From NCBI GenBank assembly GCA_021802505.1, contig JAJZXE010000001.1, forward strand, positions 35,683-99,682: a stretch of DNA of 64,000 nt, in the 5' to 3' direction. Below the pieces are notes generated by a model, which searched no databases, was not told the DNA's origin, and worked only from the letters and a program-made list of their open reading frames with translations. Numbering within the stretch: the first letter of the stretch is position 1; each line of letters starts with the position of its first letter. The stretch is from Nanobdellota archaeon. Lineage in GTDB: Archaea > Nanobdellota > Nanobdellia > Parvarchaeales > Parvarchaeaceae. Positions 5,713 through 59,178 of the stretch are shown here, piece by piece. The position numbers and the translations under genes were made by a program.

Positions 5713-5811
5713 GGCCTGGTAGCTTAGCCCGGCAGAGCACTGCTCTTATATGGGTATGCTCCAACATTTTAGGTAAAGCAGGGGTCCCGAGTCCAAATCT
5801 CGGCCAGGCCA
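5713..5811 (+). tRNA. tRNA-Ile (anticodon UAU) with a 25-nt canonical intron (5751..5775)
   Basis: Acceptor GGCCTGG/CCAGGCC, D arm GCTT-AGCCCGGCA-GAGC, anticodon stem CTGCT/AGCAG, loop C-T-TAT-A|intron|A, T arm CCGAG-TCCAAAT-CTCGG, discriminator A. Exon CTTA pairs with intron TAGG as the 4-bp splice helix. Confidence 0.8.
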
Positions 5812-13826: not shown

Positions 13827-13915
13827 AAGTCTTTTTTAGCATCCACCCAGTATTTCATTTAAACCGCAGAATGCATGCAAGATTAAAATACTATCCGTGT
13901 AAAATACTCTGTGAG

Positions 13916-14007
13916 GGGCCCATAGTCTAGCCTGGACAGGACTGATGGCTTCGAATGCCGAGGATGGAAGTAACCATCCGACCTGGGTTCAAATCCCAGT
14001 GGGCCCT
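13916..14007 (+). tRNA. tRNA-Arg (anticodon UCG) with an 18-nt canonical intron (13955..13972)
   Basis: Acceptor GGGCCCA/TGGGCCC, D arm GTCT-AGCCTGGACA-GGAC, anticodon stem GATGG/CCATC, loop C-T-TCG-A|intron|A, T arm CTGGG-TTCAAAT-CCCAG. Exon CTTC pairs with intron GAAG. Confidence 0.88.
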
Positions 14008-14040
14008 AAGTTTTTATATGACATAACTTCTAAATATTCG

Positions 14041-34324: not shown

Positions 34325-34410
34325 GCATCGGTAGTCCAGTGGTAAGACACTACCCTGCCAATTTTTATAGCAGTCCGGTGGAGACCCGGGTTCGAATCCC
34401 GGCCGATGCA
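34325..34410 (+). tRNA. tRNA-Gly (anticodon GCC) with a 15-nt canonical intron (34361..34375)
   Basis: Acceptor GCATCGG/CCGATGC, anticodon stem CTACC/GGTGG (one G.U), loop C-T-GCC-A|intron|C, T arm CCGGG-TTCGAAT-CCCGG. Exon CTGC pairs with intron GCAG. Confidence 0.88.
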
Positions 34411-53936: not shown

Positions 53937-54947
53937 ATGAAACTGCCTTTGGAGAACTTAAAGCAGGAGGTCTTTTCCATCAGGGATGAAACGACTGACA
54001 GCAGTTACGGCAGGGCTCCAAAGGATAGAAGCATAGAAGAAAGGATAAACTACGGTTTTATACTTTTGGATAAACCCGCAGGAATAAGGTCAAAGACCGC
54101 GGCCTATATAGCCAAAAAGATTATGGCGGTATTTGCGGTAAAAAAGATCGGTTATTCAGGGACTTTAGAAAATTGAAGAAATCCCAACGTAACCGGTTTA
54201 TTGCCGCTGGCCATAAACAATGCTACCAAGGTCCTGCCGGTGCTTCTGTTCGGAGGAAAGGAGTACATAGCTCTGATGCACCTGCATAAGGAGATAGACG
54301 AGCAATTACTCAGAAATACGTTTAATAAATTTATAGGGAAGATAACACAGTTACCACCCGTACGTTCGCACGTGAAAAGACAGTACCGCCAGAGAGAAAT
54401 ATATTATTCGGATATACTTGAGATAAACGGGAGGGATGTTCTTTTTAAGGTCGGCGTCGAATCAGGTACATACATAAGAAAACTTATACATGATATGGGG
54501 GAGGAGCTTGAGGTGGGGGCGCATATGAGCGAATTAAGAAGGACAAAAGTTTCCACGCTTTCGGAAAGAGACAGCCTTGTAACGCTGCAGGATCTGGACG
54601 ATGCGGTCTACTTCTACAAGGAGGAAAATGACGGCAGGCTTCTGGACAGGTGTTTGGGCAGCATAGAATCGGCGATAGATTTCCTTCCAAAAATATTTGT
54701 ATCCGATACGGCCGTGGATCCGATCTGCCACGGTTCTCCTCTTGCCGTTCCGGGAGCGGTTAAGCTCACGGAATTTGAAAAAGATGAAACCGTGGCGATT
54801 ATGACACTGAAAGGAGAGATAATAGCCCTGGGCAAGGCGGTCCTGTCGGCGGATGAAATAAAAACCGCTAAAAAAGGCGTTGCTATAAAAACCGACAGCG
54901 TTATAATGAACGTAGGCACTTATCCGCCGTATAAAAAGATTAAGTGA
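53937..54947 (+). CDS. cbf5: tRNA/rRNA pseudouridine synthase Cbf5 (TruB family plus PUA domain), interrupted by an in-frame TGA inside a 12-nt insert
   Basis: LLDKPAGIRS...GYSGTLEN*RNPNVTGLLPLA...GKEYIALMHLH... with a C-terminal PUA domain (PICHGSPLAVPGAV...). The two ORF-track pieces (53937..54176 and 54201..54947) are in the same frame. Confidence 0.85.
54169..54180 (+). other. Putative bulge-helix-loop (relaxed BHB) micro-intron in cbf5 mRNA
   Basis: Excising aaaattgaagaa rejoins tta-g|at-ccc and gives GTLDPNVTG. Outer helix is GGGA(54159-62)/UCCC(54182-85). Central helix is CUUU(54163-66)/GAAG(54175-78). The junctions AG^A and AA^A have the same geometry as the tRNA introns in this window. 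Confidence 0.6.
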
Positions 54948-57546: not shown

Positions 57547-57646
57547 ATTTATTGATTATTTAAAGAGTATAAATCAACCATTATATTATAAATACATTGC
57601 GCGGAATAGAAAGGGTTTTTATTGCGTGGCATTTTTAAATTATGAT

Positions 57647-57729
57647 GCAGAGGTAGCGAAGCGGTCAAACGTGTAAGGCTAAGGACCTTATGGCTCAGGC
57701 CTTCGAGGGTTCAAATCCCTCCCTCTGCA
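57647..57729 (+). tRNA. tRNA-Leu with anticodon AAG (A34); near-identical paralog of the tRNA-Leu(UAG) at 30200
   Basis: Same cloverleaf as 30200..30282 with 80 of 83 nt identical. The anticodon loop reads C-T-AAG-G-A between stem TAAGG/CCTTA. Confidence 0.8.
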
Positions 57730-57893
57730 GATTTATGGCTCTTATGGCTGTGTCAGACCGTATCTCTGGCGTTTGTAACCGAATCCAAAGACGAGACGAA
57801 AACACGGAAAAATCCTTATCTGCTAAGTAGCCTATCGGCGCGGTCTTCGTTATAATAAGGTATAAATACTTGACGGTCTAATAAAATAGAATT

Positions 57894-59066: not shown

Positions 59067-59178
59067 GGGGTTGTAGTCTAACCAGGCAGAATAGGCGGCT
59101 CCAGCTTGTCTGGAAAAATGACGTTAAGGATGATTAAGAAGAAACCGCTTGACCCAGGTTCAAATCCTGGCAACCCCA
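59067..59178 (+). tRNA. tRNA-Trp (anticodon CCA) with a 39-nt intron (59105..59143)
   Basis: Acceptor GGGGTTG/CAACCCC, anticodon stem GGCGG/CCGCT (one G.U), loop C-T-CCA-G|intron|A, T arm CCAGG-TTCAAAT-CCTGG. The D stem has a C.A mismatch, and the splice helix CTCC/GAAG has one mismatch. Confidence 0.75.

What the first reader, a model, noticed from the sequence alone, without database searches (positions are those of the whole stretch)
54159..54185. cbf5 carries a 12-nt, stop-containing insert on the catalytic Asp codon that folds like a tRNA-type splice motif
Seen in sequence:
- The Cbf5/TruB gene is split into two same-frame ORFs (53937..54176 and 54201..54947) by TGA at 54174..54176.
- Read through, the protein is ...KKIGYSGTLEN*RNPNVTGLLPLA... 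This breaks the universally conserved TruB/Cbf5 motif G-T-L-D-P-x-V-[ST]-G, whose Asp is the catalytic nucleophile.
- Deleting exactly 12 nt (54169..54180, aaaattgaagaa, or equivalently 54170..54181) rejoins tta-g|at-ccc. The result is GYSGTLDPNVTGLLPLA, with the Asp codon rebuilt across the junction.
- The flanks fold. Outer helix: GGGA (54159-62) with UCCC (54182-85). Central 4-bp helix: CUUU (54163-66) with GAAG (54175-78), giving C-G, U-A, U-A, U.G.
- The 3' junction lies in a 3-nt bulge AA^A (54179-81).
- The 5' junction AG^A (54167-69) lies two nt 3' of the central helix, in an 8-nt loop.
- The tRNA introns in this window show the same geometry. tRNA-Gly has CUGC/GCAG, CA^A and UC^C. tRNA-Arg has CUUC/GAAG, GA^A and UA^A.

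Established knowledge:
- The archaeal splicing endonuclease cuts BHB and BHL motifs regardless of RNA context.
- cbf5 pre-mRNA introns have been described in Crenarchaeota (Watanabe et al. 2002; Yokobori et al. 2009, from memory).
- ARMAN-type endonucleases are reported to accept relaxed motifs.

Inference: this is a 12-nt mRNA micro-intron outside Crenarchaeota, placed so that only spliced mRNA encodes an active enzyme. I cannot verify how its position or length compares with the crenarchaeal cases.
Basis: partly seen in the sequence, partly recalled or inferred. Interest (0 to 1): 0.9.

Follow-up and report, generated by a model that had tools for sequence, protein, structure and literature searches.

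The report
A 12-base intron inside cbf5
The gene for the RNA-modifying enzyme Cbf5 in this ultrasmall acid-mine archaeon (Parvarchaeota) is interrupted, exactly on the codon of its catalytic aspartate, by a 12-base insert. The insert looks like a tRNA-type intron and sits at the same nucleotide as the only protein-gene intron known in archaea, so that rarity now reaches a second, distant group.

Summary
cbf5 is split at TGA 54174-76, and removing 54169..54180 rebuilds GTLDPNVTG.

The fold alone is not significant: the same geometry occurs about 226 times per strand in the window and about 250 times in shuffles. The evidence is comparative.
- Eight syntenic Parvarchaeota orthologs (62-100% identity) carry an insert at the same nucleotide: 12 nt in seven, and 16 nt (frameshifting) in one, which forms a canonical bulge-helix-bulge in the splice register.
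- Variation inside the 12-nt insert is confined to three loop positions.
- The six exon codons around it are frozen at synonymous sites. Only 3 of 136 comparable codons elsewhere are (P about 1e-10).
- Both exons are under purifying selection.
- Inserts of 13, 14 and 17 nt occupy the same site in an Aenigmatarchaeota MAG, an unclassified contig and a TACK MAG.

The position, between letters 1 and 2 of the catalytic Asp codon, is that of the crenarchaeal cbf5 intron (16-44 bp). The predicted cuts follow the same rule.

This is most likely a real endonuclease-type mRNA intron and a new member of a known kind.

Parvarchaeum (ARMAN-4/5) is reported to have a strict alpha4 endonuclease, not the permissive epsilon2 type, so cleavage of this loop-type motif is unexplained. 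Splicing itself was not observed.

The parts
53937..54168 (+). cbf5 exon 1. It covers the DKCLD domain and the start of TruB_N, and ends with the first letter (G) of the catalytic Asp codon.
   Evidence: ORF. NCBIfam Cbf5 profile positions 3-67. dN 0.10-0.40 with dS 0.75 to saturated against relatives.
54169..54180 (+). Predicted 12-nt intron AAAAUUGAAGAA (equivalently 54170..54181). It contains the in-frame stop TGA at 54174-76.
   Evidence: Its removal restores GTLDPNVTG. Seven Parvarchaeota sequences carry a 12-nt insert here that varies only at insert positions 3-5, and one carries 16 nt.
54181..54947 (+). cbf5 exon 2. It starts with the last two letters (AT) of the Asp codon and ends at stop TGA 54945-47.
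   Evidence: NCBIfam Cbf5 profile positions 74-317 for the called ORF. Codons 54183-54200 lie upstream of the first possible start (TTG 54201), yet vary almost only synonymously among relatives.
54159..54162 (+). Exon-exon helix h, 5' strand GGGA. It pairs with 54182-54185.
   Evidence: Paired 4/4 and invariant in all 8 intron-bearing orthologs, against 1-2/4 in 9 intron-less orthologs.
54182..54185 (+). Exon-exon helix h, 3' strand UCCC.
54163..54166 (+). Central 4-bp helix H, 5' strand CUUU (exon). It pairs with 54175-54178.
   Evidence: 100% paired in relatives. U.G becomes U-A in L013. CUCU/AGAG in L022 is a compensatory change.
54175..54178 (+). Central helix H, 3' strand GAAG (intron).
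54167..54174 (+). 8-nt loop holding the 5' splice site AG^A (cut after 54168). It takes the place of the 5' bulge, giving a bulge-helix-loop form.
   Evidence: The cut lies 2 nt 3' of the central helix, which is the rule stated for cbf5 and tRNA introns in PMC2738675.
54179..54181 (+). 3-nt bulge AA^A holding the 3' splice site (cut after 54180).
   Evidence: AAA is invariant in all same-site DPANN inserts examined, and is AGA in the TACK locus L103.
54145..54155 (+). 5' strand of an 11-bp extension of the exon-exon helix. It pairs with 54189-54199 across a 3x3 internal loop.
   Evidence: z = -3.95 for the 66-nt fold, -5.4 for 106 nt. 88.6% of cells paired in relatives. Intron-less orthologs still pair 5-9 of 11, so this is largely a by-product of the coding sequence.
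54189..54199 (+). 3' strand of the 11-bp extension helix.
34361..34375 (+). 15-nt intron of tRNA-Gly(GCC) (gene 34325-34410). It serves as an internal control with the same bulge-helix-loop layout: CUGC/GCAG, CA^A in an 11-nt loop, and UC^C in a 3-nt bulge.
13955..13972 (+). 18-nt intron of a tRNA best read as tRNA-Arg(UCG) (gene 13915-14008): CUUC/GAAG, GA^A, UA^A.
   Evidence: ARAGORN's alternative call is tRNA-Ser(CGA).

Best explanation
The 12 nt at 54169..54180 are an archaeal endonuclease-type (bulge-helix-bulge family) intron in the cbf5 pre-mRNA of a Parvarchaeota archaeon.

Proposed mechanism:
1. In the transcript, exon bases GGGA/UCCC form the exon-exon helix.
2. Exon CUUU pairs with intron GAAG to form the 4-bp central helix.
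3. The tRNA splicing endonuclease (EndA) cuts 2 nt 3' of that helix on each strand. One cut follows G54168, in an 8-nt loop. The other follows A54180, in the AAA bulge.
4. An RtcB-type ligase joins UUAG to AUCCC. This creates the GAU codon of the catalytic aspartate and removes the TGA stop.

Only spliced mRNA can encode an active, full-length Cbf5.

What is shown:
- the anatomy;
- its exact register with the required deletion;
- its conservation and the constraint on it in relatives;
- the identity of the site with the crenarchaeal cbf5 intron.

What is inferred:
- that EndA and RtcB do the cutting and joining;
- that splicing occurs in vivo.

The intron seems ancestral to this Parvarchaeota group and lost in one sub-clade. 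Same-site inserts in other phyla look like separate gains.
For: 1. Register. The canonical cut rule, between bulge nt 2 and 3 (PMC2738675), applied to the fold, gives exactly the 12-nt deletion that restores GTLDPNVTG. The per-site chance of such a geometry is 4.2e-4.

2. Relatives.
- Eight syntenic Parvarchaeota loci (AglB-like gene, cytidylate kinase, cbf5) carry an insert at the same nucleotide.
- L013 has 16 nt (UGUGAUUCACAAAGAA). This puts the two ORFs in different frames. In the splice register it forms a canonical hBHBh': CUUU [AG|U] GUG-AUU-CAC AAAG [AA|A] UCCC.
- That register is not L013's minimum-energy fold (-4.4 against -8.4 kcal/mol).

3. Constraint.
- Within the 12-nt inserts, only insert positions 3-5 (apical loop) vary.
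- TCA GGG ACT TTA GAT CCC is codon-invariant in all 8 sequences. Only 3 of 136 other columns with an invariant amino acid are, which gives P about 1e-10 for six in a row.
- Intron-less orthologs vary freely at these sites, and only 1-2 of the 4 h pairs can form in them.

4. Not a pseudogene. dN is 0.08-0.40 with dS 0.75 to saturated in both exons. Codons between the stop and the next start codon change almost only synonymously.

5. Same site in other lineages.
- 14 nt in L022, with a compensatory CUCU/AGAG central helix.
- 13 nt in the Aenigmatarchaeota locus L007.
- 17 nt in the TACK locus L103, where the canonical BHB is the minimum-energy fold at -13.5 kcal/mol.

6. Same genome. tRNA-Gly(GCC) uses the same loop-type motif.

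7. Not an artefact.
- The N-terminal 79-aa piece is on 36 contigs from NCBI, JGI, ENA and Logan.
- A 90%-identical piece is annotated in ARMAN-5 as BJBARM5_0252.
- The C-terminal piece is on 25 contigs.

8. TGA is a genuine stop here. cbf5 itself ends with TGA.
Against: - No transcript evidence. No protein spanning the spliced junction at high identity was found in the 5.8-billion-protein collection. That test was weak, with only 15 candidates scored.
- The motif lacks the intron helix h' and is a bulge-helix-loop.
- According to PMC5829648, only (alpha-beta)2 and epsilon2 endonucleases cut such relaxed motifs.
- ARMAN-4/5 are reported to have a typical alpha4 enzyme (PMC3239211), and ARMAN-4's lacks the L3 loop.
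- The splice-register fold is marginal in isolation: -4.4 kcal/mol, against a minimum-energy fold of -5.7 with an extra A-U pair.
- The core helices are invariant among the Parvarchaeota, so within the clade they show conservation rather than covariation.
- No EndA or RtcB gene was found among the 30 window ORFs scanned.
Confidence: 0.85

Rival explanations
1. The intron is real, but the canonical alpha4 EndA acting alone is not what removes it. One possibility is that this lineage's endonuclease has an unrecognised broader specificity or a partner subunit. Another is that a different nuclease and ligase pair excises the 12 nt.
For: Literature states that alpha4 enzymes cut only strict BHB motifs. 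It also states that the ARMAN-4 enzyme lacks the L1, L2 and L3 loops linked to broad specificity. The window motif has no h' helix.
Against: tRNA-Gly(GCC) in the same window has the same loop-type motif and presumably must be spliced by the cell's endonuclease. The cut positions follow the EndA ruler exactly at every same-site insert examined. The endonuclease of this particular genome was not examined.
Confidence: 0.08
2. There is no splicing. cbf5 is a split or decaying gene, and the two ORFs are translated separately (or not at all) into a catalytically dead protein.
For: Gene callers annotate two ORFs in every genome examined. Split genes are known in small DPANN genomes (own knowledge). 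No spliced product was seen.
Against: Both halves are under strong purifying selection. The DPNVTG codons lie between the stop and the first start codon, yet are conserved with synonymous changes. Neither fragment would carry the catalytic Asp. RNA-level freezing of six codons has no explanation under this model. The 13-, 14- and 16-nt versions all restore one ORF when removed at the same rule-defined sites.
Confidence: 0.04
3. Translational recoding: the ribosome reads through TGA or hops over the 12 nt.
For: The 12-nt insert keeps the reading frame.
Against: Read-through would give GTLEN-X-RNPNVTG, with no Asp. A ribosome cannot assemble a GAU codon from G and AU that lie 12 nt apart. The 13-, 14-, 16- and 17-nt inserts at the same site change the frame. 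No matching take-off and landing codons are present.
Confidence: 0.02
4. Sequencing or assembly artefact.
For: None found.
Against: The identical split occurs on dozens of independent contigs from four sources and in eight diverged species-level relatives.
Confidence: 0.01

Closest known systems
Crenarchaeal cbf5 pre-mRNA intron (Watanabe et al. 2002; Yoshinari et al. 2006; Yokobori et al. 2009, PMC2738675)
   Same: Same gene. Same insertion point, between the 1st and 2nd letters of the catalytic Asp codon. Same predicted cut rule, between bulge nt 2 and 3. The motif is mostly 'unconventional' (relaxed) there too. The distribution is patchy, with apparent secondary loss.
   Different: The host is a Parvarchaeota (DPANN) archaeon, not Desulfurococcales or Sulfolobales. 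The length is 12 nt against the published 16-44 bp. The host endonuclease is reported as alpha4, not the hetero-tetrameric (alpha-beta)2 type that was proposed to have made the cbf5 intron possible. Sequence homology to crenarchaeal introns was not tested, because none were at hand.
Archaeal tRNA introns with relaxed bulge-helix-loop motifs (Marck and Grosjean 2003, as cited in the papers read here; PMC5829648)
   Same: A 4-bp central helix, a 3-nt bulge at one site, and the other site in a loop 2 nt from the helix. The size is near the lower end of tRNA introns (11-175 nt, PMC2738675). The window's own tRNA-Gly intron has the same layout.
   Different: It lies in an mRNA with no tRNA body. 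The exon parts of the motif are built from synonymous choices in the codons of a conserved protein motif.
BHB element in the 5' UTR of Haloferax volcanii HVO_1309 mRNA (PMC7714728)
   Same: A splicing-endonuclease substrate in an mRNA outside Crenarchaeota.
   Different: That element is in an untranslated region and does not interrupt a codon. It was shown experimentally, whereas this one was not.

Membership tests
Archaeal endonuclease-type (BHB/BHL) intron | A 4-bp central helix flanked by the two cleavage sites, each 2 nt 3' of the helix on its own strand | tested here: met
   CUUU/GAAG, with cuts after 54168 and 54180. The same register holds in L013, L022, L007 and L103.
Archaeal endonuclease-type (BHB/BHL) intron | Two 3-nt bulges plus both outer helices h and h' (strict hBHBh') | tested here: not met
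   In the window, h (GGGA/UCCC) and the 3' bulge AAA are present. The 5' site lies in an 8-nt loop with no h', giving the relaxed BHL form. In the splice register, the strict form is present in the 16-nt L013 insert and the 17-nt L103 insert.
Archaeal endonuclease-type (BHB/BHL) intron | Excision yields a functional product | tested here: met
   The spliced ORF is collinear with solved Cbf5 structures and passes the NCBIfam Cbf5 equivalog cut-off, 361 bits against 242.
Archaeal endonuclease-type (BHB/BHL) intron | Cleavage by EndA and ligation by RtcB, with the spliced RNA present in cells | not testable with these tools
   No transcript data were available. The protein-database proxy found nothing and was a weak test. 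Neither EndA nor RtcB was among the 30 window ORFs scanned.
cbf5 catalytic-Asp-codon intron (crenarchaeal type) | Located in cbf5 between the 1st and 2nd letters of the catalytic Asp codon | tested here: met
   tta g|at ccc, compared with the statement in PMC2738675.
cbf5 catalytic-Asp-codon intron (crenarchaeal type) | Length 16-44 bp | tested here: not met
   12 nt in the window, and 13-17 nt in the other lineages.
cbf5 catalytic-Asp-codon intron (crenarchaeal type) | Host in Desulfurococcales or Sulfolobales with an (alpha-beta)2 endonuclease | tested here: not met
   Source names give Candidatus Parvarchaeota / Parvarchaeum for the window protein and its relatives. ARMAN-4/5 EndA is reported as alpha4.
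cbf5 catalytic-Asp-codon intron (crenarchaeal type) | Common descent with the crenarchaeal introns (sequence similarity of the intron) | not tested
   No crenarchaeal cbf5 DNA was available. One TACK MAG intron (L103) shares the GGGA...UCCC exon helix and a YYYU/RRRG central helix.
Cbf5/TruB pseudouridine synthase | The GTLDPxV[ST]G motif with the catalytic Asp | tested here: met
   Present only after removal of 54169..54180. It aligns to GTLDPKVSG of P. abyssi Cbf5.

The most novel reading that the evidence does not exclude
The catalytic-Asp codon of cbf5 may be a recurrent landing site for mobile BHB micro-introns across archaeal phyla.
- Independent gains would have occurred in Crenarchaeota, another TACK lineage, Parvarchaeota, Aenigmatarchaeota and at least one further lineage.
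- In Aenigmatarchaeota the gain looks recent, because nearly all relatives at 68-82% identity are intron-less.
- The intron-bearing Aenigmatarchaeota gene carries a second insert elsewhere in the gene that shares the sequence CCCU...GGGGAAAUC with the first.

In Parvarchaeota, an alpha4 endonuclease without any known specificity loop would have to cut a 12-nt loop-type motif in an mRNA. That contradicts the current rule that only (alpha-beta)2 and epsilon2 enzymes do so.
Probability: 0.35. Interest if true: 0.8.

Novelty: new member of a known kind. Interest (0 to 1): 0.6.

Why it matters
The cbf5 intron of Crenarchaeota is the textbook example, and until 2020 the only reported one, of a spliced protein-coding gene in Archaea (PMC7714728).

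- **Origin of the intron.** The same nucleotide is interrupted in DPANN archaea, down to a 12-nt minimum. So the phenomenon is neither crenarchaeal nor tied to the hetero-tetrameric endonuclease that was invoked to explain its origin.
- **Endonuclease specificity.** It gives a sharp, cheap test: does a loop-less alpha4 EndA cut a bulge-helix-loop in an mRNA?
- **Gain against retention.** It raises the question of recurrent gain against ancient retention at one site.
- **Annotation.** Current pipelines mis-annotate cbf5 as two genes in these genomes. The N-terminal piece is named 'hypothetical protein' or 'tRNA pseudouridine synthase A'.

Tried and rejected
1. **Metagenome scan** with a protein alignment. 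The tool chose a peptide pattern spanning GTLD, so only intron-less or bacterial loci came back. It gave no information on introns.
2. **Junction-spanning peptide search** for spliced transcripts. It returned only the 79-aa N-terminal fragments from 15 scored candidates, so it is inconclusive.
It was rerun with exon 2 only.
4. **Pfam scan of 30 window ORFs** for EndA or RtcB found none. The scan was not exhaustive.
5. **Rfam** has no family at the insert. The junction motif RRRGAAATCCY occurs only once in the window, no more than chance.
6. **The 11-bp extension helix** was considered as an intron-specific feature and downgraded. Intron-less orthologs keep 5-9 of the 11 pairs, so it mostly follows from the coding sequence.
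7. **Literature searches** for cbf5 with Parvarchae*, DPANN, ARMAN or Bathyarchae* found no prior report. Baker et al. 2010 could not be read.
8. **Bootstrap tree with Biopython** timed out. It was redone with my own distance code.
9. **Search of PMC2724299** for a crenarchaeal cbf5 substrate sequence. The paper does not mention cbf5, so no crenarchaeal intron sequence was obtained.
Full report
**1. The observation**

- An ATG-initiated ORF at 53937..54176 encodes the N-terminal 79 residues of Cbf5 and ends ...KKIGYSGTLEN*.
- TGA lies at 54174-76.
- A second ORF in the same frame, 54201..54947, carries the rest of the protein.
- Removing 54169..54180 (AAAATTGAAGAA) joins tta-g to at-ccc and yields a 332-aa protein with GYSGTLDPNVTGLLPLA.
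- That protein aligns without a gap at the junction to Pyrococcus abyssi Cbf5 (2aus_C, residues 13-331; E = 3e-88).
- It passes the NCBIfam Cbf5 equivalog (361 bits, cut-off 242).
- The two separate ORFs cover profile positions 3-67 and 74-317. They miss exactly the Asp motif.
- TGA is a real stop in this organism, because cbf5 itself ends with TGA.

**2. The fold, and what chance would give**

RNAfold reproduces GGGA/UCCC, CUUU/GAAG and the 3-nt bulge AAA. It adds one A54167-U54174 pair. The splice register costs -4.4 kcal/mol against -5.7 for the minimum-energy fold.

The 27-nt fold is not better than shuffles (z = -1.4). A scan for the bare geometry finds 226 hits on the + strand, 222 on the - strand, and 219-284 in shuffled sequence. 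That geometry is 4 bp + 4 bp, a loop of 6-14 nt, and a 3-nt bulge. So the structure by itself proves nothing.

What is unlikely is its register. The published rule is cleavage between the 2nd and 3rd nt of each bulge, that is, 2 nt 3' of the central helix on each strand (PMC2738675). Applied to this fold, the rule predicts cuts after 54168 and 54180. That is exactly the deletion that rebuilds the Asp codon. The per-site frequency of the geometry is 4.2e-4.

Longer contexts fold significantly better than shuffles (z = -3.5 to -5.4). The reason is an 11-bp helix, 54145-55 with 54189-99. Intron-less orthologs retain 5-9 of those 11 pairs, so this helix is mostly a consequence of the coding sequence.

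**3. The organism**

Sources name the identical and near-identical proteins Candidatus Parvarchaeota / Parvarchaeum. A 90%-identical N-terminal fragment is BJBARM5_0252 of Ca. Parvarchaeum acidophilus ARMAN-5.

Two tRNA features fit what Fujishima et al. 2011 report for ARMAN-4/5. One is tRNA-Leu(AAG) at 57646-57730. The other is a tRNA readable as tRNA-Ile(UAU) at 5713-5811.

**4. Relatives: the decisive evidence**

*Distribution of split and intact genes.*
- In the protein search, every hit of 62-100% identity to exon 2 is a truncated protein of 223-260 aa.
- A separate set at 63-66% identity is full length, 331-353 aa.

*DNA of eight intron-bearing loci* (window, L001, L018, L009, L017, L011, L015/L016, L013).
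- All share the synteny AglB-like gene, cytidylate kinase, cbf5.
- All carry an insert at the same nucleotide.

*The seven 12-nt inserts.*
- They read AA[A/G][A/C][U/C]U GAAG AA.
- They therefore vary only at three apical-loop positions.

*The 16-nt insert of L013* (GCA_023269965.1, 62% identity).
- It reads UGUGAUUCACAAAGAA and puts the two ORFs in different frames.
- Removing it by the same rule restores one ORF.
- In the splice register it forms a canonical hBHBh': CUUU [AG|U] GUG-AUU-CAC AAAG [AA|A] UCCC.
- Its minimum-energy fold is a different register, -8.4 against -4.4 kcal/mol.
- Its central helix has U-A where the others have U.G.

*Intron-less orthologs.* Three of them sit in the same synteny (L019-L021) and read GGT ACC TTA GAT CCA, GGC ACA CTC GAC CCA and GGT ACC CTA GAC CCG.

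**5. Constraint**

- Synonymous sites are saturated across this clade. dS runs from 0.75 to saturated, with dN 0.08-0.40 in both exons. Both halves are therefore under purifying selection.
- Among 142 alignment columns with an invariant, degenerate amino acid, only 9 are codon-invariant.
- Six of those nine are the consecutive codons TCA GGG ACT TTA GAT CCC that flank the insert. The other three are isolated. That is 3 of 136 elsewhere, so six in a row has P about 1e-10.
- These codons supply the exon strands of helices h and H. The synonymous choices GGG, GAU and CCC are exactly the ones that let GGGA pair with UCCC.
- Helix h is 4/4 paired in all eight intron-bearing genes and only 1-2/4 paired in nine intron-less ones.
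- The codons for D-P-N-V-T-G-L lie between the stop and the first possible start codon. They change almost only synonymously. So they are translated, which requires removal of the insert.

**6. The same site in other lineages**

- **L022**, a Logan contig at 56% identity, has a 14-nt insert AGUAAUUCAGAGAA. Its central helix is CUCU/AGAG, which is U-A changed to C-G relative to the window, a compensatory change.
- **L007**, an Aenigmatarchaeota hot-spring MAG, has a 13-nt insert AACUUUAGGGGAA at the same nucleotide. It also has a second, 20-nt insert inside the GPT|SH motif. Removing both gives one 319-aa Cbf5 ORF.
- **L103**, a TACK-group MAG, has a 17-nt insert AGGCUCCUGCCGGGGAG. Its canonical BHB is the minimum-energy fold, -13.5 kcal/mol.
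- In the search of 1.84 billion cluster representatives, about ten of the best 150 begin exactly at the V of V[ST]G. Names attached to them include Bathyarchaeia, Tardisphaera / TACK group and Aenigmarchaeota.

**7. History**

- A neighbour-joining tree places the intron-bearing Parvarchaeota as a paraphyletic grade, with the intron-less clade nested inside. Bootstrap support is 100 for the whole group and 64-73 for the nesting.
- This suggests one gain followed by loss, as was proposed for Desulfurococcales. The support is only moderate.
- In Aenigmatarchaeota the picture is the opposite. Of the 120 closest relatives of L007 (68-89% identity), only P0383 is truncated, besides L007's own ORF (P0316). 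The intein-bearing P0155, found in the representative search, is also truncated at VTG.
- That pattern points to a recent, separate gain.

**8. Comparison with what is known**

Yokobori et al. 2009 (PMC2738675) report the following.
- The cuts fall between bulge residues 2 and 3.
- Most motifs are unconventional.
- Sizes are 16-44 bp.
- The intron occurs only in Desulfurococcales and Sulfolobales. It is absent from Thermoproteales, Cenarchaeum, Nitrosopumilus and Korarchaeum.
- It was probably lost secondarily in some lineages.

A 2020 paper still calls this the only BHB intron reported in a coding region (PMC7714728). My searches found no report for Parvarchaeota, ARMAN, DPANN or Bathyarchaeia.

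The window therefore holds the same kind of element at the same site. It is new in host phylum and is the shortest so far.

**9. The weak point**

That enzyme (epsilon2) belongs to ARMAN-1/2.
- ARMAN-4/5 are reported to carry a single 177-aa alpha4-type subunit (PMC3239211).
- Kaneta et al. 2018 state that only (alpha-beta)2 and epsilon2 enzymes cut relaxed motifs. They also state that ARMAN-4 is the exception among DPANN alpha4 enzymes in lacking the L3 loop (PMC5829648).
- The 12-nt insert has no h' helix, so by that rule it should be a poor substrate.
- Against this, tRNA-Gly(GCC) in the same window has the same layout: a 5-bp stem, CUGC/GCAG, an 11-nt loop holding CA^A, and the bulge UC^C.
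- So either the enzyme is broader than assumed or another factor helps.
- I could not examine this genome's EndA. It is not among the 30 ORFs scanned.

**10. Verdict**

- The insert is most likely a genuine endonuclease-type mRNA intron (confidence 0.85).
- Splicing is inferred, not observed.
- It is a new member of a known kind, and it extends the archaeal cbf5 intron to DPANN archaea.
- The more novel readings are a recurrent insertion hotspot, mobile micro-introns, and a strict-type endonuclease cutting a loop-type mRNA motif. These are not excluded and are directly testable.

Noticed in passing
L007 448-467 and 539-551 (JAVZIY010000069.1, Ca. Aenigmatarchaeota MAG): cbf5 in this MAG carries two micro-inserts: 13 nt at the catalytic Asp codon and 20 nt inside the GPT|SH motif. 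Both share CCCU...GGGGAAAUC, and removing both restores a single 319-aa ORF. Nearly all relatives at 68-82% identity are intron-less, so the inserts look recently gained and possibly related to each other.
   Followed up: partly
L022 375-388; L103 1177-1193: Same-site inserts of 14 nt and 17 nt. The 14-nt one is on an unclassified Logan contig and has a compensatory CUCU/AGAG central helix. The 17-nt one is in a TACK-group MAG, GCA_002507085.1, and forms a canonical BHB. Cluster names for similar truncated Cbf5 proteins include Bathyarchaeia and Tardisphaera, which lie outside the two crenarchaeal orders published.
   Followed up: partly
window 13915-14008: ARAGORN calls this tRNA-Ser(CGA) with a long variable arm. 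Removing 13955-13972 by the BHB rule (CUUC/GAAG, GA^A, UA^A) leaves a 76-nt sequence whose anticodon loop reads UCG (Arg), which seems the better reading.
   Followed up: partly
window 5713-5811: ARAGORN calls this tRNA-Thr(UGU) with an intron inside the anticodon. A canonical 37/38 intron at 5751-5775 (CUUA/UAGG, UA^U, UA^A) instead gives tRNA-Ile(UAU), a tRNA reported for ARMAN genomes (PMC3239211).
   Followed up: partly
window 57646-57730: tRNA-Leu with anticodon AAG (A at the wobble position). Fujishima et al. 2011 noted this eukaryote-like trait for ARMAN-4/5, and it supports the taxonomic assignment.
   Followed up: no
L015 and L016 3269-3955; P0155, P0142, P0147, P0150, P0196: In two Parvarchaeota relatives a free-standing LAGLIDADG_3 ORF (228 aa) sits directly downstream of cbf5. 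Separately, several Cbf5 homologs of about 730-840 aa match in two stretches. One of them is annotated as a LAGLIDADG homing endonuclease and looks intein-bearing. cbf5 seems to attract several kinds of insertion.
   Followed up: no
window 59067-59178: tRNA-Trp(CCA) has a 39-nt intron. Its central helix, CUCC/GAAG, would contain a C.A mismatch if the cuts follow the usual rule.
   Followed up: no
window 54156-54158: The Ser codon TCA just upstream of the GGGA helix is also frozen in all intron-bearing orthologs, while intron-less ones use TCA, TCC or TCT. In the fold it lies in the 3x3 internal loop. Its role is unexplained.
   Followed up: no
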